DNA of 11,928 nucleotides from a virus (taxonomy: Duplodnaviria; Heunggongvirae; Uroviricota; Caudoviricetes): the IMG/VR virus record IMGVR_UViG_2585427787_000004, positions 1-11,928 of that record. One strand, 5' to 3'. Each line of letters begins with the position of its first letter. The stretch's first letter is position 1. The translations under genes were made by a program, and so were the position numbers. Below the pieces are notes generated by a model. That model was not told the DNA's origin and ran no database searches. It was given only the letters and a program-made list of their open reading frames with translations. Positions 2,630 through 11,928 of the stretch are shown piece after piece.

Positions 2630-3007
2630 TTATCGCTTCAGCTGAAAGTGAGGTCCGTCTTTCAGCGTTTTCCAGTCCCCGCCCCATTCGATAGCGATCC
2701 CCAGCTCTGCGGCAGCCTGCTTAAATGCCTGTGCGATTTTCTCGTACAGAGGCCACTCCCATGACACCTGGCTGCCGATGTAGGCCACAACATCCACCGC
2801 ATCACCGGTCAGGTGGCGGCTGTTCATGGTCTGGCTTTTCCCTTCCGCAACCAGCTGTTTCTGGCGATACTTACTGCGCAGGCCTTCCGTAATACCGAAA
2901 TCAACCTCCGTCAGCTCCAGCGCACGGCGAACTACAGCAACCAGCTGTGGTTTGACACCCTCCAGATTTTTTTCACTGCGACGGCTGAATCTGAATTTAC
3001 CCGGCAT
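2630..3007 (-). CDS. Endolysin, peptidase M15 family (zinc D-Ala-D-Ala carboxypeptidase / L-alanyl-D-glutamate peptidase-like)
   Basis: Translation shows the M15 zinc-ligand pattern: SRHLTGDAVDV (H-x6-D) and C-terminal DGPHFQL histidine. The ORF track begins at a GTG (3013); I prefer the ATG at 3007, which has a GAGGTG Shine-Dalgarno about 5 nt upstream and sits 2 nt after the TGA of the preceding gene. Confidence 0.8.
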   Translation of the reverse strand: MPGKFRFSRRSEKNLEGVKPQLVAVVRRALELTEVDFGITEGLRSKYRQKQLVAEGKSQTMNSRHLTGDAVDVVAYIGSQVSWEWPLYEKIAQAFKQAAAELGIAIEWGGDWKTLKDGPHFQLKR

Positions 3008-3009
3008 AT

Positions 3010-3285
3010 TCACCTCAACAATGGAAAGATTTTTGTGACGTTCCCGCGTGCGTGTATCACCAGCACGCAGAACAGCAGGTTAAAAAACACTTCCAGCCAG
3101 CCCGTTGCTAACGGGCGACCACACAGATAGCTGAGGGGCGCAAAGGCATACAGCAGCATCAGCAGCCAGGCCAGCCATGACACCAGCGGTTTATGTCTGG
3201 AATCACGGCGACGATAAAAAAAGAGCGTCAGCACGATAACCGTGCATAACGCCACATTCAGCAATCCGGGAAGGTTACTTAACAT
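3010..3285 (-). CDS. Lysis-cassette membrane protein (91 aa, 2-3 predicted TM helices); possible second holin or antiholin
   Basis: Hydrophobic translation (LLNVALCTVIVLTLFFY...WLAWLLMLLYAFAPL...FFNLLFCVLVIH); ATG at 3285; tightly packed between the putative holin and the endolysin. Confidence 0.5.
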   Translation of the reverse strand: MLSNLPGLLNVALCTVIVLTLFFYRRRDSRHKPLVSWLAWLLMLLYAFAPLSYLCGRPLATGWLEVFFNLLFCVLVIHARGNVTKIFPLLR

Positions 3286-3667
3286 TGCCGCCTACTCCAC
3301 CCCGCAGGCGGGAGAACACACCGGACACCAGCGATGCAATATCCTGCTGGTGGATGAACGAGAGAATCTTCACCGACACCACCGAGACCAGCACCGCGCA
3401 AAGCGCATCTGCTGATGTACCGTCATACCCTGTTTTTGATGCAATCCAGGCTGACAGCACACGCGCTCCCAGCACGCCGACAATAAACGACACCAGAAAA
3501 TGCGCCACCACGCGCCAGACTGAAAGTGACTGCGGCATCGTTGCCACAAATAACGCCCCGGCGAACGCGCCAAACACAATCCCGAAATCCATCCCGGTAA
3601 ACAGCCCGAATACCGTCGCGCCACCCAGCGCCGCAGCCGTGCCGGAACCGGATAAGGGTTCAGACAT
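3275..3667 (-). CDS. Putative holin (130 aa, three hydrophobic segments)
   Basis: ORF-track frame 3275..3718 trimmed to the ATG at 3667, which is preceded by a strong AGGAGG Shine-Dalgarno (rev. comp. of 3671-3676). Three hydrophobic helices and a charged C-terminus; first gene of the lysis cluster upstream of the endolysin. Confidence 0.55.
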   Translation of the reverse strand: MSEPLSGSGTAAALGGATVFGLFTGMDFGIVFGAFAGALFVATMPQSLSVWRVVAHFLVSFIVGVLGARVLSAWIASKTGYDGTSADALCAVLVSVVSVKILSFIHQQDIASLVSGVFSRLRGGVGGNVK

Positions 3668-3755
3668 ACTTCCTCCTGAAAATAAAAAAAGGGCCACCAG
3701 CGACCCGTAAAAAAACACCCCGTCAAAGGCACCCGCAGATGCCTTTTGTGTGATG

Positions 3756-3908
3756 TTATTCAGATTTACGCAGTAAAGGCCGGAGCACGATCAGCGCCAT
3801 CGCCACCAGCACACCATCTGCCAGCACTGACATCAGTCGTCCGGTGAAATCCACCATCACTACCAGAAACAACAGGATGACAGCCAGCACAAGGCGCGCA
3901 CTTTTCAC
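3756..3908 (-). CDS. Possible 50-aa hydrophobic peptide (GTG start) just upstream of the holin; very tentative
   Basis: Hand-translated minus-strand frame: (GTG) KSARLVLAVILLFLVVMVDFTGRLMSVLADGVLVAMALIVLRPLLRKSE, GGAG about 8 nt upstream of the GTG. Below the ORF-track cutoff; no homology recognised. Confidence 0.2.
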   Translation of the reverse strand: MKSARLVLAVILLFLVVMVDFTGRLMSVLADGVLVAMALIVLRPLLRKSE

Positions 3909-4111
3909 AGGTACTGCTCCAGCGGCAACTGCAGCGCCTGCGCAATTTTCTTCAGTTGCGCTTCTTCTTCCTGACCGATACCGTCCTGGTCAGCGATATC
4001 CAGACACAGACACAGCACATTCACAGTATCATCAGTATCTGCAACATCAGTCAGCTGACGAAGGGCTTCAGCATTAGCAGAACGCGGTGGCGCTTCATAA
4101 CGGGCGCGGAT

Positions 4112-4137
4112 ATGAAAAAGGCCCGCCGAAGCGAGCC
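4112..4137 (-). terminator. Candidate rho-independent terminator after the tRNA cluster (GGCUCGC-UUCG-GCGGGCC followed by U-run on the minus strand)
   Basis: Hairpin read from plus 4120-4137 with A-run at 4115-4119 (U-tract on the minus transcript). Confidence 0.45.
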
Positions 4138-4151
4138 TGGAAAAATAAGCG

Positions 4152-4228
4152 TGGCGCGTTGTACTGGATTCGAACCAGTGACCGATTGCTTAGAAGGCAA
4201 TTGCTCTGTCCGGCTGAGCTAACAACGC
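4152..4228 (-). tRNA. tRNA-Arg (anticodon UCU), phage-encoded
   Basis: Reverse complement folds as a cloverleaf: acceptor GCGTTGT/ACAACGC, D-arm GCTC...GAGC, anticodon stem ATTGC/GCAAT with loop CTTCTAA (anticodon TCT), T-arm ACTGG-TTCGAAT-CCAGT, discriminator G, encoded CCA. Confidence 0.85.
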
Positions 4229-4241
4229 AGGGTACAGATAA

Positions 4242-4318
4242 TGGACCGCCATCGAGGACTCGAACCCCGCGCAACCAGCTTCGAAGGCTGGCGCTCTATC
4301 CTGATGAGCTAATGGCGG
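4242..4318 (-). tRNA. tRNA-Arg (anticodon UCG), phage-encoded
   Basis: Reverse complement: acceptor CCGCCAT/ATGGCGG (perfect 7 bp), D-arm GCTC...GAGC, anticodon stem CCAGC/GCTGG with loop CTTCGAA (anticodon TCG), T-loop TTCGAGT, encoded CCA. Confidence 0.8.
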
Positions 4319-4325
4319 TATGTGA

Positions 4326-4401
4326 TGGTGGCCCTTGCTGGATTTGAACCAGCGACCTGGCGATTATGAGTCGCTCGCTCTCACCACTGAGCTAAAGGGC
4401 C
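4326..4401 (-). tRNA. tRNA-Ile2-like (anticodon CAU; sequence resembles the E. coli lysidine-modified AUA-reading tRNA rather than tRNA-Met)
   Basis: Reverse complement GGCCCTTTAGCTCAGTGGTGAGAGCGAGCGACTCATAATCGCCAGGTCGCTGGTTCAAATCCAGCAAGGGCCACCA closely resembles, as I recall it, the chromosomal tRNA-Ile2 (ileX/ileY); anticodon loop CTCATAA. Confidence 0.8.
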
Positions 4402-4450
4402 GGGAGCAGAATAATAATGGTGCGTAATTAATTCTGCAATCTCATCCGTT

Positions 4451-5500
4451 TCAAACGATTAAATCCTGAACTTCCCTGACTGTCTGTTCAAAACGTCCGG
4501 TCTCCAGCTCAACACCAATCGCACAACGCCCCAGTGCCATCGCCGCTTTTACCGTTGAACCTGAACCCATAAAAAAATCTGCAACCAGGTCTCCCGGACG
4601 ACTGCTCGCGTTGATTATCTGCTGCAGCATTTCTGCCGGTTTTTCGCACGGATGTTTCCCTGGATAGTACTGCACCGGTTTATGCGTCCAGACATCGGTG
4701 TACGGAACCTGCGCCGTCACACCGAAATACCGCCGCAAATTTTTATATTCACTCAGCAGTTCCGTATACTGCCGGTTCAGCTCACTGTATGTGCTGACCA
4801 GCTGGTGGTGTGGCTTTTCCAGTTCCCCGCGCTGATGTTTTTCTGCCGCAACACGCGCAAACAACGCCTGCAATTTATTGTAATCACCCTCGTTCGGTAA
4901 CTGCCACTGACTGGCACCAAACCAGTGCGAAGCCATGTTTTTCTTTCCGGTGGCTTCCGCTATCTGTTTTGACGTTATTCCCAGTGATTTACGCGCATCA
5001 CGAAAGTAAGAAATCAGCGGGGCCATGACGTGCTGTTTTAGCTCGCGCCCCTGCTCCACATAGCCATCATCTTTCGGGCGATACGGTCCCTGATAATGTT
5101 CTGCAAACAGAATGCGCTCTGTTGCCGGAAAATACGCCCGCAGACTTTCCTTATTGCACCCGTTCCAGCGTCCGGACGGCTTCGCCCAGATAATGTGGTT
5201 CAGCACATTAAAGCGCTCACGCATCATGATTTCGGTGTCAGATGCCAGGCGATGACCACAGAACAGGTAAAGACTTCCGGCAGGCTTCAGTACCCGCCAG
5301 AACTGCGCCAGACACTGGTCCAGCCATTTCAGGTAATCATCGTCGCCCTCCCACTGGTTATCCCAGCCCTCGGGCTTCACTTTAAAGTATGGCGGGTCTG
5401 TGACTATCAGATCGACAGAGTTTTCCGGTAAGGTCTGGATAAACTCCAGGCAATCAGCGTTGATTAACTCACAACTGGATATTTTTACAGTATTAATCAT
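4451..5500 (-). CDS. DNA methyltransferase, beta-class amino-methyltransferase (probably N6-adenine); no adjacent restriction endonuclease seen
   Basis: 349-aa ORF. N-terminal catalytic motif IV DPPY (LIVTDPPYF) and C-terminal AdoMet motif I FxGxG (DFFMGSGSTVKAAMALGRCAIGVE); the IV-then-I order defines the beta class. Confidence 0.85.
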   Translation of the reverse strand: MINTVKISSCELINADCLEFIQTLPENSVDLIVTDPPYFKVKPEGWDNQWEGDDDYLKWLDQCLAQFWRVLKPAGSLYLFCGHRLASDTEIMMRERFNVLNHIIWAKPSGRWNGCNKESLRAYFPATERILFAEHYQGPYRPKDDGYVEQGRELKQHVMAPLISYFRDARKSLGITSKQIAEATGKKNMASHWFGASQWQLPNEGDYNKLQALFARVAAEKHQRGELEKPHHQLVSTYSELNRQYTELLSEYKNLRRYFGVTAQVPYTDVWTHKPVQYYPGKHPCEKPAEMLQQIINASSRPGDLVADFFMGSGSTVKAAMALGRCAIGVELETGRFEQTVREVQDLIV

Positions 5501-5650
5501 AGATCAATAAGCACTTCTCTGATAGGCTCATACCGCTTTTGCGCAAAGCAGATGGGCCTGAGGTTTGCTTGTGACCCCAACGCATGAGCAGATGGCTGGC
5601 AGGTGCCGCTAACACCCACCAGCCGCCCATTACCACAAATTAAAAAGCCT

Positions 5651-5848
5651 TCACTGCGGAAGGCGTCTGTAACAACCGAACTGATAATCTGCCAGACCCG
5701 CCATAACAAGCTGAGTCAGTATTAACTGGCAGCGTTCGCGTGAAAGGTAAGTATTCTGCGCAATTTCCCCGACGGTCGCCGGTTCGGTGATGCTTAATTC
5801 ATTAAACACCACTCTGGCGGTTTCGGTCATATCCTGCTGTTTTAGCAT
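5651..5848 (-). CDS. Small protein (65 aa) with helix-turn-helix-like segment; hypothetical
   Basis: ORF-track frame 5651..5971 begins at a GTG lying inside the terminator hairpin; trimmed to the first ATG at 5848 (alternative ATG at 5830). Translation MLKQQDMTETARVVFNELSITEPATVGEIAQNTYLSRERCQLILTQLVMAGLADYQFGCYRRLPQ. Confidence 0.4.
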   Translation of the reverse strand: MLKQQDMTETARVVFNELSITEPATVGEIAQNTYLSRERCQLILTQLVMAGLADYQFGCYRRLPQ

Positions 5849-5971
5849 GCCTTTTTCCCTTTTCCGGTTAACGTGACATACCAATACCTCTTGTCGAAAA
5901 AGCCAGCAAGCTGAAAGACCGGCATTCGCAACCACCAGCGCATTTAACGTCCTGTACCGCTTTTCGGGCAC

Positions 5972-5995
5972 AAAAAAACCCGCATAAAGCGGGTT
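5972..5995 (-). terminator. Rho-independent terminator immediately downstream of the Q-type gene (candidate tR')
   Basis: Stem AACCCGC-ATAAA-GCGGGTT (5977-5995) with A7 run on the plus strand at 5972-5978, i.e. a U-tract after the hairpin on the minus transcript. Confidence 0.6.
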
Positions 5996-6054
5996 CTTTC
6001 AGGTGTCCATGTCTGCTATTCGCCTCGCGGTATAGCTTTGCGAAGCGTAGCTGG

Positions 6055-6083
6055 ATTGAAACAGTTTATGCGTAAAAAATCAA
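6055..6083 (-). promoter_or_regulatory. Candidate late promoter (pR'-like): -35 TTGATT, 17-nt spacer containing TG, -10 TTCAAT on the minus strand
   Basis: Hexamers read from the reverse complement of 6055-6083; the position between the Q-type gene stop and the terminator matches the lambdoid pR'/qut-tR' arrangement. Hexamer match is weak, so this is positional inference. Confidence 0.3.
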
Positions 6084-6634
6084 GACATTTTTTGAGCAAA
6101 CGATTCTCGCATAGGGATGTATAGCGCATATTCAGCAACAGCTAACCAATTAGCAATTCGCTTTTCGCATGTACTAAAACACCATTCCGGGTGCACCTCA
6201 TTCAACAATTCAGCCATTTTGCGTTTACTCATCCCCCGCCCTTCGTACCTTTGCCGCAGGATATCAATCAATCCAGGATAACGTGCAAGCGCTTTACTTA
6301 TCACCCCATCAATGCGTAACGCCTCTGCATCAGTACAGTGAGACAACCAGCTCTTCTGTCTGCCAGCGATCATCTCTCGCAAGAATGCTTCCAGCTCTGG
6401 TTTATCAATCCCTGACTCCCTGATTCTACGCAGGGCTTCATTGATTGCGGTTTTTGTCAGTTTTTTGGATGCCAGCAACTGATTGAACATATTTCCTGGT
6501 TTGCCACCACCTATATACGACCAACGCCCCCACATCCGTAATTTCCCCTGGATCCAGACGGCTTCCAGCGTTTTTAGACGTAAATGCTCGCCGCTTTTGC
6601 CTGTAATTTCCGGGTATATCATATTTACGATCAC
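6080..6634 (-). CDS. Putative late-gene antiterminator Q (Q-family protein)
   Basis: 184-aa ORF (GTG at 6634; first ATG at 6622). Contains an LRMWGRWSYIGGG segment resembling the WGAW segment I recall from phage 21/933W-type Q proteins, and sits in the canonical Q position: after rusA, before a promoter-terminator pair and the lysis genes. Confidence 0.6.
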   Translation of the reverse strand: MIVNMIYPEITGKSGEHLRLKTLEAVWIQGKLRMWGRWSYIGGGKPGNMFNQLLASKKLTKTAINEALRRIRESGIDKPELEAFLREMIAGRQKSWLSHCTDAEALRIDGVISKALARYPGLIDILRQRYEGRGMSKRKMAELLNEVHPEWCFSTCEKRIANWLAVAEYALYIPMRESFAQKMS

Positions 6635-8493: not shown

Positions 8494-8649
8494 TTACTCC
8501 TCAGGTTCGTAAGCTGTGAAGACAGCGACCTCCGTCTGGCCGGTTCGGATTCGTACCTCGCAGAGGTCTTTCCTCGTTACCAGTGCCGTCACTATGACGG
8601 TTAAACAGATGACGATCAGGGCGATTAACATCGCCTTTTGCTGCTTCAT
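8494..8649 (-). CDS. hokD: Hok/Gef-family type I toxin (51 aa)
   Basis: Translation MKQQKAMLIALIVICLTVIVTALVTRKDLCEVRIRTGQTEVAVFTAYEPEE matches, as far as I can recall, E. coli HokD (RelF); typical Hok TM helix plus the conserved Cys/Tyr periplasmic tail. ATG at 8649 preceded by AAGGAG. An in-frame upstream ATG at 8706 gives a 70-aa extension (possible mok-like reading frame). Confidence 0.85.
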   Translation of the reverse strand: MKQQKAMLIALIVICLTVIVTALVTRKDLCEVRIRTGQTEVAVFTAYEPEE

Positions 8650-9050
8650 AGCCTGCTTCTCCTTGCCTTTCGGCACGTAAGAGGCTAACCTAGATTTGCC
8701 GTTCATAGATTGAGCCTCAGATTAATGTTAAACGTCTTGCAGGACGCGTAACGTTAACTGGGGCTTTTCTCTATCTGCCTTTTGGTGGCATGCCTGAGAC
8801 AGATAACCTCAAGCACCCGCAGTAATTTTACATAAAGGTTATGGTTCCTTTCAATAACTCAACAATTTCCCATCTAAATACTACTCATATAGTCATATAG
8901 GCTGGCGATAATTTAAAGATAAGACTCTCTCTTTTTCTCCACCACATAATGCATTACCAACGCAAAAGTTACCATGGTAATTATATCTTAACGAAAAATA
9001 CCCCGCGAACATATTCTACTCAACAAAAAATTTTGCGTACGCATTATTCT

Positions 9051-9097: not shown

Positions 9098-10012
9098 ATG
9101 GCTAGCAAGCGCTTTTTCTTCGATTTTTATCAATGTCACACTATAAGCACTGATACAAATGCAGGAGTTAATTCACCTGAAGCTGTTTTTTCAAAAATTT
9201 TTGAGTCATACAGCGAAGGCCGAGACAAAACTGTACGTAAAATAGGAAATAAACTAGTTGAAATGCGCTTCATGGAAAGAACCGACTATGGTTTCAGGGG
9301 AGTTATAGGAAAACACAGAACCAATAATCTCCCTCATGTTGCTGTAGCCGGAGGTGAAGAAAGAGAAATTAAACTTGAAATCAATGAAAACTTATTAGAA
9401 AAAGCTTATTTTCATTTTTATACCCAAGACTCAGTTTTAATAATTCAACGAAACAGACTCTGTTATGGCTGGTTGCTATTAAGTAAATATCTTTCCAACA
9501 GTTCACAAAATACAACTGTTAATCCCATCATTCAGACCAGTAGTTTAAAGTGGTTGATGCGTAATGAAGTTCGAATCAAAACTCTAGAAATCGGTATCGC
9601 TCGGCCAAAGAATGTGCAACTATATGAGGATGTTGAACATAACTTCAACAATGCATTGATAGCCACTCTAAATGGTACTAATTCTGCCAAAGTAAATCTT
9701 ACATTACGTGGGGATAGTCGTTCTGAAGATCCTGAATCTCGCTATCTAGGTTCTCAACTAAAAAGAGCCTTTAAAGAAACACTAGAGACTTTTGAGGTTG
9801 AAAAACTTAAACTAGAAACCCAAGACATTGAGACCGGTGTACAGCATCCTATCGATCTTGTAGCAGACAAATTAGTCTACTACACAGATGTTGAACTTGG
9901 AGGTAGGTATCCATTAGTTGGCAGCATTTGGAGCGCCTTAACTCTTGCAAAAGATAGTAAAGATGATGAATTGAAGGCATACTTTGGAGTAGCCAATCAA
10001 AGAGTTGATTAA
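9098..10012 (+). CDS. Hypothetical soluble protein, 304 aa (ORF A of the AT-rich cassette); no family recognised
   Basis: Long ORF with AT-rich codon usage, ATG at 9098 with a weak purine-rich stretch upstream. No Walker, HxH or other catalytic motif that I can assign with confidence. Followed 15 nt later by ORF B. Confidence 0.7.
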   Translation: MASKRFFFDFYQCHTISTDTNAGVNSPEAVFSKIFESYSEGRDKTVRKIGNKLVEMRFMERTDYGFRGVIGKHRTNNLPHVAVAGGEEREIKLEINENLLEKAYFHFYTQDSVLIIQRNRLCYGWLLLSKYLSNSSQNTTVNPIIQTSSLKWLMRNEVRIKTLEIGIARPKNVQLYEDVEHNFNNALIATLNGTNSAKVNLTLRGDSRSEDPESRYLGSQLKRAFKETLETFEVEKLKLETQDIETGVQHPIDLVADKLVYYTDVELGGRYPLVGSIWSALTLAKDSKDDELKAYFGVANQRVD

Positions 10013-10027
10013 TTTTGGAGCGATGGT

Positions 10028-10507
10028 ATGAAAAAGGGGAAATTGATAACTTTGTACAGTTATGGTTATAATTTAGCCTCTGTTGTTTTTTGTATCATCG
10101 CATGGCCTCTTTCTGCAAAGCTAAATTTTGCACAAATTCAGCCAATCGCTTCGGCCGTTTCTACATTTTCTGGGATATTATTTGGCTTTGTTTTAGGTTC
10201 GCTTACCTTGATTGCTTCAGCTAGAGATAATACGCTAATTAGAAATATAGGAAAAACTGGTTATTTGAAAAAACTGACCGAAGAAATGCACTCCACTATG
10301 GGATGGTTACTATCAGTTTGTATTATTTTTATCATTTTATTATTTTTCCCTGATACACTAAAGTTTAAATTCCCACTAGTAAAAGATGCCGACGAGCACA
10401 CATATGCCCAACTATTACTCCAAGTGGGAATTTTTTTCCTGCTTATTACATTTAAAAAATTTTATACTACCTGGTCGCGTCTAAAAGACATAACAAGGCT
10501 CATGTGA
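10028..10507 (+). CDS. Hypothetical small polytopic membrane protein, 159 aa, about four TM helices (ORF B of the cassette)
   Basis: ATG at 10028 preceded by GGAG at about 8 nt. Four hydrophobic segments (LASVVFCIIAWPL; IASAVSTFSGILFGFVLGSLTLIA; MGWLLSVCIIFIILLFF; YAQLLLQVGIFFLLITF) separated by short charged loops. Confidence 0.7.
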   Translation: MKKGKLITLYSYGYNLASVVFCIIAWPLSAKLNFAQIQPIASAVSTFSGILFGFVLGSLTLIASARDNTLIRNIGKTGYLKKLTEEMHSTMGWLLSVCIIFIILLFFPDTLKFKFPLVKDADEHTYAQLLLQVGIFFLLITFKKFYTTWSRLKDITRLM

Positions 10508-10512
10508 TATAT

Positions 10513-11037
10513 CTATAATTGCACATAAAAAGACAATCCTAACAATACTCCCATTGTAAGTTGTATATTCTTTCTTATTGTTCCATCTGAACATTTGTAC
10601 CTTCGTGCTATTGTACGCAAAGATATACCTATAACAAAATGAGCGATAATTAACTCATAGTCATCTATTCTATATTGTTTAAGCTTCAACATGCAGGTAT
10701 CAATCATACGACCTTCATCGTTGCCACACTGACGGCGTAATTTCTTACCATGAGGTACTACATCTTTATATTTATCAGCCACTTGCTGCCAGTTGATAGA
10801 ACTATTTCCAGCTGCAGCCCAAGCCCCCCAACTGTCCAAAATATCATATATATTAGCATTGCTATCCACCTTTTTTTTATATTCTTTTTTGAGGCAACCA
10901 AGAAGCATCCTGGCCATCGTTATTATTTCTATACTTGTAACTGATTCATAAGCATCAGGAGAAATAATCCTCCCATCACTTAATGCCCTTTCACTAAGAT
11001 TTGCTATTTCCAATAATCGTTCTTTAGTTATTTCCAT
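10513..11037 (-). CDS. Q-family antitermination protein paralog (phage 21/933W-Q-like), 174 aa from the ATG
   Basis: Track ORF starts at GTG 11049; the ATG at 11037 has a GGAGA Shine-Dalgarno. The C-terminal 100 aa parallel the 933W/21-type Q as I recall it: LDSWGAWAAAGN vs LERWGAWAANN, CGNDEGRMIDTCMLKLK vs CCDDDAMIICGCMARLK, YKCSDGTIRKNIQ vs HCCSDGYIGKRLQ. AT-rich codon usage. Confidence 0.65.
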   Translation of the reverse strand: MEITKERLLEIANLSERALSDGRIISPDAYESVTSIEIITMARMLLGCLKKEYKKKVDSNANIYDILDSWGAWAAAGNSSINWQQVADKYKDVVPHGKKLRRQCGNDEGRMIDTCMLKLKQYRIDDYELIIAHFVIGISLRTIARRYKCSDGTIRKNIQLTMGVLLGLSFYVQL

Positions 11038-11162
11038 TATTATCTCCACCGCCCTTTCGGGCGGCCTCCTGATGTTCTGAGGGTGCAGAAATCCCTCCGG
11101 TTAAGGATTAAATTTTATTTACAGTGCTGGATTTAATTATTCAGATTTGGATTATGCTTTCT

Positions 11163-11928
11163 GTAAGCGACTCGTCAGAACCGTATTGATATTTACTGAG
11201 AGCTCAGATCAACTTTCCAGGGCAACAGATCGCGTACCCGGTTTGCCGGCCAGTCCTGGATATGTTCAATGACGTAACGCAGCCACTTTTCTGGCTCCAC
11301 ATTGTTCAGACGGCATGTGCCGATCAGCGAGTACAACACCGCCGCATGTTCACCACCGCTGTCGGAACCCGCGAACATCCAGTTTTTCCGGCCTACGGCC
11401 ACTCCCCGTAAGGCGTTCTCTGCGATGTTGTTGTCGATTTCCACCCAGCCATTACTGCAGTACACGTTCAGTGCATCCCACTGTTTCAGCAGGTATGCGA
11501 ACGCTTTTGCCGTATCTGAGTGACGCGACAGTGTTTTCATCTGTTGCTGTATCCAGTCATACAGTGACTGCATCAGTGGCGCGGCTCTGGCTTTTCTTGC
11601 CGCCAGACGCTGTTCTGCTGAACAGCACCGGACCTCTGCCTCGATGGCATACAGTTCACCGATACGCTGCAGGGCTTCCGTGGTGATGTAGGTGGGCGCT
11701 CTTGCATGCACATCGTGGATTTTTCTCCGGGCATGAGCCATACACGCGGCTTCCGTTATTCTGCCGGATTCGTATAACGCCCGGTAACCACCGTAAGCAT
11801 CGGCCTGAAGCACACCGCTGTAACCGGCCAGGTGATTTTGTGGATGGATACCTTTCCGGTCCGGACTGTACGCGAACCAGACCGCCGGGGGCATCTGTGA
11901 ACCGGCGTTACGGTCATCACGGACGTAG
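11163..11928 (-). mobile_element. IS66-family insertion sequence, right-end portion (terminal repeat beginning GTAAGCG at 11163); element continues past the window end
   Basis: IS66-family terminal inverted repeats start with GTAAGCG; this motif sits about 30 bp beyond the stop of the IS66-type transposase ORF, the expected geometry for the tnpC-proximal end. Confidence 0.65.
11193..11928 (-). CDS. IS66-family transposase (TnpC/orf3), C-terminal part; N-terminus lies outside the window
   Basis: Translation has the characteristic IS66 TnpC segments ([56 protein letters not shown]). The frame stays open from the track start (11894) to the window edge. Confidence 0.8.

What the first reader, a model, noticed from the sequence alone, without database searches (positions are those of the whole stretch)
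4152..4401. Phage-borne tRNA trio Ile(CAU)-Arg(UCG)-Arg(UCU) between the methyltransferase and the lysis cassette, the arrangement seen upstream of stx in Stx phages
Three well-formed tRNAs with encoded CCA ends decode the rare codons AUA, CGA and AGA/AGG. In 933W-type phages the ileZ-argN-argO cluster sits between Q/pR' and the toxin genes, just before the lysis genes. Here the same kind of trio is in the same relative position, but the slot before the holin carries no toxin genes (see next finding).
Basis: partly seen in the sequence, partly recalled or inferred. Interest (0 to 1): 0.5.

Follow-up and report, generated by a model that had tools for sequence, protein, structure and literature searches.

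The report
Known prophage tRNA trio, no toxin
The three tRNA genes are real and are the same well-known ileZ-argN-argO cassette that Shiga-toxin phages carry, here in a toxin-less E. coli prophage, so the finding is correct but ordinary.

Summary
Confirmed and already known. ARAGORN and Rfam both call three minus-strand tRNAs at exactly 4326-4401 (CAU), 4242-4318 (UCG) and 4152-4228 (UCU), each with an encoded CCA end. The CAU tRNA is the lysidine-type tRNA-Ile2. It matches K-12 ileX at 68/76 positions and tRNA-Met at 54/78, and it has the ileX-type C4-G69/C5-G68 pairs. The block 4103-4552 is homologous to the 933W pT-ileZ-argN-argO-terminator cassette (89.8% identity; ileZ is 100% identical). 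It is 100% identical to annotated tRNA genes in ETEC strain ATCC 43886. ileZ copies occur in 3057 of 5426 complete E. coli genomes, far beyond Stx phages. The layout RusA, Q-like gene, methyltransferase, tRNAs, cargo, lysis genes is published for stx phages. Here the cargo slot holds a truncated TerB gene and DUF3927 instead of stx. The cognate codons ATA, AGA, AGG, CGA and CGG are 2.7-9.3 times enriched in the window's genes compared with a K-12 core sample, but not in the adjacent lysis genes. The most likely function is a self-contained tRNA operon that supplements scarce host tRNAs. That function is inferred, not shown. Interest is low.

The parts
4411..4439 (-). Putative tRNA promoter pT: TTGCAG, a 17-nt spacer, then TATTAT. 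It ends 9 nt before the 5' end of ileZ.
   Evidence: It aligns with the 29-nt feature annotated 'pT; putative tRNA promoter' in 933W. Both hexamers are identical in the window and 933W, while the spacer has 4 substitutions. It matches only 8 of 12 consensus positions, so the simple scan did not call it. Activity was not tested.
4326..4401 (-). ileZ: tRNA-Ile2 with anticodon CAU (read as lysidine-AU after TilS modification), which decodes AUA. The CCA end is encoded.
   Evidence: ARAGORN; Rfam 72.5 bits. It is 100% identical to 933W ileZ. It is 68/76 identical to K-12 ileX against 54/78 for tRNA-Met. PGAP names it tRNA-Ile.
4242..4318 (-). argN: tRNA-Arg with anticodon UCG, which decodes CGA and probably CGG. 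The CCA end is encoded and the discriminator is U73.
   Evidence: ARAGORN; Rfam 56 bits. The minimum-free-energy fold is a cloverleaf. It differs from 933W argN at 4 positions that I place in loops: three in the D loop and one in the variable loop. It is the least conserved of the three genes but is intact here.
4152..4228 (-). argO: tRNA-Arg with anticodon UCU, which decodes AGA and probably AGG. The CCA end is encoded.
   Evidence: ARAGORN; Rfam 70.1 bits. It has one difference from 933W argO: A37 here, as in K-12 argU, and G37 in 933W.
4114..4138 (-). Intrinsic terminator of the tRNA operon: an 8-bp stem rich in G+C, a UUCG loop and a run of U.
   Evidence: Terminator scan, 8 pairs of which 6 are G-C. 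Fold energy -15.7 kcal/mol, z = -3.1. It aligns with the annotated terminator upstream of stx2 in 933W. Across 8 loci the stem is kept (one G-C becomes G-U) while the loop varies among TTCG, TTTG and TTTT.
4451..5500 (-). N6/N4 DNA methyltransferase gene (349 aa) directly upstream of pT. It is the conserved left neighbour of the cassette.
   Evidence: Pfam PF01555, E = 2.3e-44. The same adjacency occurs in stx2 phage 1720a-02 and in ETEC and ExPEC prophages. 933W-type phages keep a remnant.
3905..4102 (-). 5'-truncated TerB-family gene, a pseudogene, in the cargo slot downstream of the terminator.
   Evidence: Compared with ATCC 43886 and cS51a, where the gene is intact at 141 aa (PF05099, E = 2.1e-07), 354 bp are missing between two copies of ATATCCGCGCC. 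PGAP marks the equivalent stretch in strain 504838 as 'incomplete; missing N-terminus'.
3756..3908 (-). DUF3927 small ORF (50 aa), the second gene of the cargo slot, just before the holin genes.
   Evidence: Pfam PF13064, E = 1.1e-14. It is annotated in relatives.

Best explanation
This is the ileZ-argN-argO tRNA operon of lambdoid E. coli prophages, in a toxin-less prophage of the kind found in ETEC strains. It is a compact transcription unit of its own: a sigma-70-type promoter pT, three tRNAs separated by 7 and 13 nt, and a strong intrinsic terminator. It sits in the late region between the Q-like antiterminator/methyltransferase genes and the cargo and lysis genes. Its products are tRNA-Ile2 (AUA), tRNA-Arg(UCG) (CGA and probably CGG) and tRNA-Arg(UCU) (AGA and probably AGG). 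In E. coli these codons are served by scarce tRNAs, or in the case of CGA only through inosine wobble. The cassette therefore raises the decoding capacity for codons that prophage and other horizontally acquired genes use several times more often than core genes do. The tRNAs would be made at a basal level from pT in the lysogen. After induction they would be made at a higher level, through genome amplification and through Q-modified transcription reading through from the late promoter. SHOWN here: the genes, their isotypes and intact cloverleaves, homology to the Stx-phage cassette, conservation of the promoter hexamers and the terminator stem, the position of the cassette, and the codon enrichment. 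INFERRED: that pT fires, that TilS and the synthetases accept these tRNAs, that read-through occurs, and that supplementation is the benefit under selection.
For: The tRNA calls and scores are. The Ile2 identity rests and on PGAP naming. Homology to 933W and to 289 phage records comes. The promoter hexamers are unchanged while the spacer varies, and the terminator stem is kept while its loop varies; that pattern is expected of functional signals. ileZ is under strong constraint: it shows no differences among four otherwise 90-95% identical loci, and the best copy is at least 99% identical in 2776 of 3068 genome records. Codon counts for the window's genes, per 1000 codons, are ATA 14.0, AGA 8.9, AGG 6.3, CGA 7.3 and CGG 11.4. 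A 14,526-codon K-12 core sample gives 2.5, 1.2, 0.7, 2.7 and 3.5. The odds ratios are 2.7-9.3, with p from 3e-4 to 7e-14. Late structural genes of two related prophages are 2-7 times enriched. Upstream there are terminator-like hairpins at about 5975-5998 and at 5647-5664, after the Q-like DUF1133 gene. This parallels the pR'-tR' layout annotated in 933W.
Against: The lysis genes directly downstream use almost none of these codons; the TerB-to-endolysin block of ATCC 43886 has ATA at 1.9 and AGG at 1.9 per 1000. Position therefore does not reflect a local need. argN is often degenerate in relatives. It has a broken acceptor stem and has lost T54 and A58 in ETEC 504838, PGAP does not annotate it in several genomes, and it is detectable in only 1114 genomes against 3057 for ileZ. 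The CGA-reading member is thus dispensable. pT matches only 8 of 12 consensus positions. No expression data were available, and I found no experimental paper on the function of these tRNAs in the held library.
Confidence: 0.8

Rival explanations
1. A host-side benefit is the main reason the cassette is kept. Expressed from pT in the lysogen, including from defective prophages, it acts as extra chromosomal gene dosage for rare tRNAs. This helps translate AT-rich, horizontally acquired genes such as virulence plasmids and islands, rather than helping phage growth.
For: The cassette has its own promoter and terminator. ileZ is present in 3057 of 5426 complete genomes at up to 12 copies per genome. 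It is retained next to decayed genes: a truncated TerB here, a frameshifted methyltransferase in GN02050 and an IS insertion in E2348/69. The window's prophage shows other signs of decay, including an IS66 fragment and two Q-family genes.
Against: This is not exclusive of the phage-side explanation. Nothing here measures host fitness or expression in lysogens. High copy number may simply follow from many lambdoid prophages per genome and from recombination among them.
Confidence: 0.2
2. The block is mainly a conserved homology arm. The invariant tRNA block is where homologous recombination swaps neighbouring modules (Q types upstream, cargo such as stx downstream), and the tRNAs themselves contribute little.
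For: The sequence is conserved through the terminator in eight loci and then diverges by cargo type within 0-12 nt. The cargo is stx2AB, DUF6645, TerB+DUF3927 or an IS. The upstream neighbours also differ: four kinds of Q-family gene, and a methyltransferase that is full-length, frameshifted, a remnant or absent. argN decays.
Against: A mere homology arm would not keep perfect cloverleaves, CCA ends, identity elements, promoter hexamers and a terminator stem while the spacers and loops drift. ileZ and argO are far more conserved than the roughly 60 nt around them.
Confidence: 0.1
3. The tRNAs are a counter-defence. They replace or outcompete host tRNAs that are cleaved by anticodon nucleases of defence systems or colicins (colicin D targets tRNA-Arg), as proposed for the tRNA sets of lytic phages.
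For: The evidence is only circumstantial. Two of the three are Arg isoacceptors, and argO differs from host argU in all its stems. From general knowledge, tRNA-cleaving defences and phage tRNA escape are documented for other isoacceptors.
Against: The anticodon loop of ileZ is identical to that of host ileX, and the anticodon loop of argO (CUUCUAA) is identical to that of argU. No escape changes are seen where anticodon nucleases act. I know of no E. coli anti-phage system that targets tRNA-Ile2 or tRNA-Arg. All three anticodons match codons that are rare in the host and over-used by the prophage, which codon supplementation explains directly.
Confidence: 0.05

Closest known systems
ileZ-argN-argO cluster of Stx2 phage 933W (GenBank AF125520) and the other Stx1/Stx2 phages that carry it
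   Same: The gene order, anticodons, strand logic and pT promoter are the same, as is the terminator after argO. It lies downstream of a Q gene and upstream of cargo and lysis genes. Identity is 89.8% over 450 nt; ileZ is identical and argO has one difference.
   Different: stx2AB and the yjhS/nanS-p-like gene follow the terminator in 933W, whereas a truncated TerB gene and DUF3927 follow it here. 933W has only a remnant of the methyltransferase gene, and its Q gene and lysis genes (S/R) belong to other families. argO has G37 in 933W and A37 here.
Stx2 phage 1720a-02 (KF030445) and the 'rusA, Q, DNA methylase, tRNA genes, stxAB' layout of LEE-negative STEC phages (PMC3491183)
   Same: The small ORF, the full-length methyltransferase, the tRNA trio and the terminator are all homologous to window 4103-5983 at 89.2% identity. 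The published gene order matches.
   Different: It carries stx2 after the terminator and has lambda-type S/R lysis genes.
Toxin-less prophages of ETEC strains ATCC 43886, cS51a, 504838 and NCCP 13717 (RefSeq)
   Same: The cassette is 100% identical in ATCC 43886. The whole DUF968, RusA, DUF1133, methyltransferase, tRNAs, TerB, DUF3927, holins and M15 peptidase module is 98-99% identical.
   Different: TerB is intact in ATCC 43886 and cS51a and truncated here. argN is a pseudogene in 504838 and intact here. The head and tail modules differ between these prophages.
Host genes ileX (tRNA-Ile2) and argU (tRNA-Arg UCU) of E. coli K-12
   Same: The anticodons are the same and the anticodon loops identical. 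ileZ is 89% identical to ileX.
   Different: argO shares only the conserved core with argU, and its stems differ. I recall that K-12's Arg tRNA genes carry only the anticodons ACG, CCG, UCU and CCU. Consistent with that, argN-like sequence is found in only 1114 of 5426 genomes, so it is not a core gene.
tRNA genes downstream of Q in other lambdoid phages (SfI, Sf6, ST64T, P21: tRNA-Asn/Thr; PMC3636060)
   Same: The genomic position, just after the late antiterminator gene, is the same, and so is the proposed role of supplementing codons over-used by the phage.
   Different: The isotypes differ (Asn GUU and Thr UGU), and these genes are not homologous to this cassette.

Membership tests
tRNA (Rfam RF00005) | A cloverleaf that scores above the family threshold over the full model | tested here: met
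   72.5, 56.0 and 70.1 bits against a gathering score of 29, over model positions 1-71. ARAGORN calls all three.
tRNA-Ile2 (lysidine type, ileX/ileY/ileZ) | A CAU anticodon with an ileX-type body rather than a tRNA-Met body | tested here: met
   68/76 identical to ileX, 54/78 to metT/U and 49/78 to metV. The anticodon stem-loop is identical to that of ileX. PGAP names it tRNA-Ile.
tRNA-Ile2 (lysidine type, ileX/ileY/ileZ) | Acceptor-stem pairs C4-G69 and C5-G68, which I recall as TilS determinants | tested here: met
   The acceptor stem is GGCCCUU/AAGGGCC, against GGCUACG/CGUAGCC in tRNA-Met. That these pairs are TilS determinants is recalled knowledge, not tested here.
tRNA-Ile2 (lysidine type, ileX/ileY/ileZ) | C34 is actually converted to lysidine and the tRNA is charged with Ile | not testable with these tools
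   This needs mass spectrometry or aminoacylation assays.
ileZ-argN-argO cassette of lambdoid/Stx phages | The order Ile(CAU), Arg(UCG), Arg(UCU) on one strand, with sequence homology to the 933W cluster | tested here: met
   89.8% identity over 450 nt to 933W, and up to 95.1% to other Stx2 phages.
ileZ-argN-argO cassette of lambdoid/Stx phages | Its own promoter (pT) upstream and an intrinsic terminator downstream | tested here: met
   Both signals are present in the sequence and align with the annotated 933W features. The hexamers and the stem are conserved. Their activity was not tested.
ileZ-argN-argO cassette of lambdoid/Stx phages | A location between a Q-family antiterminator gene and the lysis genes | tested here: met
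   The DUF1133/Q-like gene is at 6080-6634, the holin genes at 3010-3718 and the M15 peptidase gene at 2630-3013.
Stx-converting phage | stxA and stxB genes after the tRNA terminator | tested here: not met
   tblastn of Stx2A and Stx2B against the window gives nothing better than E = 2. The slot holds a TerB remnant and DUF3927.
Moron (an autonomous promoter-gene-terminator insert in a phage late operon) | An independent transcription unit flanked by a promoter and a terminator, present in some relatives and absent in others | tested here: inconclusive
   The promoter and terminator are present, and the cassette is missing from many genomes. I did not examine lambdoid prophages that lack the cassette at this position.

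The most novel reading that the evidence does not exclude
The tRNA cassette could be the portable left homology arm of a cargo slot. In eight loci the sequence is conserved through the argO terminator and then switches, within 0-12 nt, to lineage-specific cargo: stx2AB, DUF6645, TerB+DUF3927 or an IS. The stx2 and TerB lineages even share the next 11 nt, ATATCYGCGCC. That is the same motif at which the 354-bp TerB deletion in this window occurred. If recombination at this block is what moves stx between lambdoid backbones, then toxin-less prophages like this one are ready recipients or donors for toxin conversion.
Probability: 0.2. Interest if true: 0.4.

Novelty: already known. Interest (0 to 1): 0.12.

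Why it matters
It matters little beyond correct annotation. The cassette has been named in the GenBank record of phage 933W (AF125520) and is annotated automatically in thousands of RefSeq genomes. Three points are useful. (1) The CAU tRNA should be annotated Ile2, not Met. (2) The trio is not a marker of Stx phages, because more than half of complete E. coli genomes carry ileZ copies. (3) The position after the terminator is a variable cargo slot; here it holds a decayed TerB/DUF3927 module rather than toxin genes, so this locus carries no toxin.

Tried and rejected
(1) A literature search by gene names (ileZ, argN, argO, 933W with tRNA genes and rare codons) found nothing relevant in the held library. 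The 933W genome paper could not be read under the id I tried. Support for 'known' therefore rests on the GenBank and RefSeq annotations and on three papers that mention the arrangement.

(2) The simple promoter scan did not call pT, which matches 8 of 12 positions against a threshold of 9. I rely on the alignment to the annotated 933W pT and on hexamer conservation.

(3) I found no convincing late promoter (pR') consensus in 5980-6100. There is only a terminator-like hairpin and a sub-threshold isrK match (E = 0.086). Placing the tRNAs inside a Q-dependent late transcript is therefore by analogy with 933W.

(4) Minimum-free-energy folding of single tRNAs gave a cloverleaf only for argN. The ileZ and argO minimum-energy folds are not cloverleaves, which is usual for unmodified tRNA sequences. 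I did not count this against them, given the covariance-model scores.

(5) Weak Rfam hits overlapping the tRNAs (Plastid-ycf2 on the antisense strand, YrlA, STnc100) are all far below their thresholds, and I rejected them as side-effects of tRNA-like structure.

(6) The idea that the tRNAs serve the adjacent lysis genes was rejected, because those genes hardly use the cognate codons.

Full report
OBSERVATION. ARAGORN finds exactly three tRNA genes in the 11,928-base window, all on the minus strand. Rfam's tRNA model matches all three over its full length at 72.5, 56.0 and 70.1 bits against a threshold of 29, with E-values from 1e-14 to 4e-10. Each gene ends in an encoded CCA. The genes are separated by 7 and 13 nt.

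ISOTYPES. ARAGORN calls the CAU tRNA 'Met' because it reads only the anticodon. Its anticodon stem-loop is identical to that of ileX. Its acceptor stem is GGCCCUU/AAGGGCC, with C4-G69 and C5-G68 as in ileX, whereas tRNA-Met has U4-A69 and A5-U68. The 6:67 pair differs from ileX on both sides (C-G to U-A), so pairing is kept. RefSeq's pipeline names this tRNA in the same cassette tRNA-Ile. Lysidine formation itself cannot be tested here.

The UCU tRNA has the same anticodon loop as host argU (CUUCUAA) but different stems. As I place the D-loop positions in the sequences, both Arg tRNAs have A20, which I recall as the main ArgRS identity element. The UCG tRNA folds into a cloverleaf. I recall that K-12's Arg tRNA genes carry only the anticodons ACG, CCG, UCU and CCU. 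In line with that, argN-like sequence is found in only 1114 of 5426 complete genomes, so it is not a core gene.

WHAT IT IS. A 351-base query covering the cassette (4100-4450) hits 289 phage records, 275 of them over at least 80% of its length and at 80-95% identity. Most are Stx2 phages whose records annotate ileZ, argN and argO under the match. The 933W record gives the order Q, pR', qut, two terminators, pT ('putative tRNA promoter'), ileZ, argN, argO, a terminator, stx2A, stx2B, L0105, L0106, S, R. BLAST of the window against 933W shows homology over 4103-4552 at 89.8% identity. That stretch comprises the terminator, the three tRNAs, pT and the last 100 nt or so of the methyltransferase gene.

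In a four-way alignment, ileZ is identical in the window, 933W and two ETEC prophages. argO differs from 933W at one base (A37 here, G37 in 933W). argN is the variable member. The pT hexamers (TTGCAG, 17 nt, TATTAT, ending 9 nt before ileZ) are unchanged between the window and 933W, while the spacer carries four substitutions. Across eight loci the terminator stem is kept, with one G-C changed to G-U, while its loop varies among TTCG, TTTG and TTTT. This pattern is what functional signals show. The cassette is thus a self-contained promoter, tRNA and terminator unit.

CONTEXT. Reading the minus strand, the window encodes the following, in order:
- a Q-family antiterminator (10513-11049);
- on the other strand, a DUF6731 gene and a 159-aa ORF;
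- hok/sok;
- DUF968, RusA and a DUF1133/Q-like protein (6080-6634);
- a small ORF and an N6/N4 DNA methyltransferase (4451-5500);
- the tRNA cassette;
- a TerB remnant and DUF3927;
- two holin-family genes and an M15 peptidase;
- small ORFs and the terminase genes.

The closest genomes are human ETEC isolates. [quoted passage not shown]

The methyltransferase-tRNA adjacency is also found in Stx phages. Phage 1720a-02 has the small ORF, the methyltransferase, the tRNAs and stx2A, homologous to window 4103-5983. 933W-type phages keep a remnant, annotated as a 50-aa 'DNA methylase' or as an incomplete methyltransferase. A published figure legend lists rusA, Q, DNA methylase, tRNA genes, stxAB, yjhS and lysis genes for stx phages (PMC3491183). 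[quoted passage not shown]

THE SLOT AFTER THE TERMINATOR. No stx homologue is present (tblastn gives nothing better than E = 2). In ATCC 43886 and cS51a the terminator is followed by an intact 141-aa TerB-family gene and DUF3927. In the window, 354 bp are missing between two copies of ATATCCGCGCC. This removes the start and roughly the first 85 codons of TerB. Strain 504838 has the same deletion, and RefSeq marks the rest as an incomplete gene. In other lineages the slot holds stx2AB plus an esterase (O157:H7), a DUF6645 gene (GN02050) or an IS (E2348/69). An alignment of eight loci shows conservation through the terminator and divergence by cargo type within 0-12 nt after it.

DISTRIBUTION. 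The whole cassette covers at least 80% of the query in 2291 of 5426 complete E. coli genomes, with up to 13 places per genome. Searched singly:
- ileZ is found in 3057 genomes, and the best copy is at least 99% identical in 2776 of 3068 records;
- argO is found in 2369 genomes, with at least 99% identity in 1336 of 2380 records;
- argN is found in only 1114 genomes, with at least 99% identity in 146 of 1118 records.

Megablast needs a 28-nt exact word, so diverged argN copies drop out of that count. In ETEC 504838 the argN copy has two broken acceptor pairs, a C-A mismatch in the anticodon stem, and changes at T54 and A58. It folds no better than shuffled sequence and is not annotated. Several other genomes also have only two annotated tRNAs, and PMC13641118 reports the same for stx2i prophages. 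The cassette is therefore common well outside STEC, and argN is its dispensable member. All three genes are intact in this window.

CODON USE. The table gives codons per 1000.

| Gene set | ATA | AGA | AGG | CGA | CGG |
|---|---|---|---|---|---|
| Window, 18 ORFs (3151 codons) | 14.0 | 8.9 | 6.3 | 7.3 | 11.4 |
| K-12 core sample, 41 genes (14,526 codons) | 2.5 | 1.2 | 0.7 | 2.7 | 3.5 |
| Host genes flanking a related prophage | 5.9 | 3.5 | 0.3 | 4.6 | 5.9 |
| Late structural genes, two related prophages | about 5 | 3.5-4.6 | 4.1-4.6 | about 6 | 12.5-13.4 |
| Early and regulatory genes | 11.1 | 9.0 | 5.2 | 8.4 | 10.5 |

For the window against the K-12 sample, the odds ratios are 5.7, 7.2, 9.3, 2.7 and 3.3, with p from 3e-4 to 7e-14. 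stx2AB of 933W is extreme, with ATA at 36.8 per 1000 (68% of its Ile codons). The TerB-to-endolysin block next to the tRNAs is not enriched. In the window's own holin and endolysin genes the cognate codons are nearly absent. The Q-family gene at 10513-11049 uses ATA for 14 of its 21 Ile codons.

MECHANISM. The best-supported reading is the standard one. The cassette is an autonomous tRNA operon that adds decoding capacity for AUA, AGA and AGG, and for CGA and CGG. Prophage and other acquired genes use these codons 2-9 times more than core genes do. I infer basal expression from pT in the lysogen, and higher expression after induction through genome amplification and Q-dependent read-through.

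The read-through part rests on analogy. After the DUF1133 gene there is a hairpin with a T-run at about 5975-5998, overlapped by a sub-threshold isrK match (E = 0.086). A second terminator-like hairpin lies at 5647-5664, before the methyltransferase gene. This resembles the pR'-tR' layout of 933W, but I could not identify the late promoter.

Three rivals were considered. A mainly host-side benefit is not exclusive of the main reading. A role chiefly as a recombination arm is argued against by the selective conservation of tRNA features. A counter-defence role is argued against because the anticodon loops are identical to those of host ileX and argU.

VERDICT. The feature is already known and routinely annotated. 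Interest is low.

Noticed in passing
window 8494-8818 (-): A hok/sok type I toxin-antitoxin locus. The sok RNA matches Rfam RF01794 at 108.7 bits (8644-8818), and a HokD-like ORF lies at 8494-8706. Relatives annotate it as hokD.
   Followed up: partly
window 10513-11049 (-) and 6080-6634 (-): The region has two Q-family antiterminator genes: a clear Phage_antitermQ member (E = 2.8e-30) and a DUF1133 protein with a weak Q match. This suggests two nin/late-control regions joined by recombination. The first gene uses ATA for 14 of its 21 Ile codons.
   Followed up: partly
window 9098-10507 (+): Two genes on the opposite strand sit between the first Q-family gene and hok/sok: a DUF6731 protein (304 aa) and a 159-aa hydrophobic ORF with no Pfam match. 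They look like an inserted cargo module of unknown function. Relatives such as cS51a carry other genes there, including a death-on-curing family toxin.
   Followed up: no
window 11193-11894 (-): A fragment of an IS66-family (ISCro1-like) transposase gene at the right edge of the window, a sign that the prophage is disrupted or decaying.
   Followed up: no
window 3905-4113 (-): The TerB-family gene downstream of the tRNA terminator has lost its 5' part through a 354-bp deletion between two copies of the 11-bp repeat ATATCCGCGCC. The gene is intact in ATCC 43886 and cS51a, and the same deletion is present in strain 504838.
   Followed up: yes
window 4191 (position 37 of argO); L001 6049-6125: argO has A37 here, as in host argU, but G37 in 933W. 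A37 is the position that normally carries t6A in tRNAs reading ANN codons (recalled knowledge), so the 933W variant may decode differently.
   Followed up: partly
L002 4281-4357 (ETEC 504838); also L015 (E2348/69): argN, the UCG tRNA, is a pseudogene or is unannotated in several related prophages. It is detectable in only 1114 genomes against 3057 for ileZ, so the middle tRNA of the trio is often lost while the outer two are kept.
   Followed up: partly
window 5973-6046 (-): A sub-threshold isrK match (21.6 bits, E = 0.086) ends in a hairpin with a run of T, just downstream of the DUF1133/Q-like gene. It may be the short terminated leader RNA of the late promoter, by analogy with the pR'-tR' layout annotated in 933W. 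No clear promoter consensus was found.
   Followed up: partly
L001 6350-6451; L009 6339-6491; L013 3837-3950: 933W-type Stx2 phages keep a remnant of about 100 bp of the 3' end of the same methyltransferase gene directly upstream of pT. The methyltransferase-tRNA adjacency therefore looks ancestral, with 933W a deleted form.
   Followed up: yes
window 2630-3718 (-): The lysis cassette consists of two holin-family genes (Phage_holin_8, then a 3TM Phage_holin_3_7) and a 127-aa M15 peptidase. This differs from the class II holin and lysozyme of 933W. The same lysis module is joined to quite different head and tail modules in ATCC 43886 and cS51a.
   Followed up: partly
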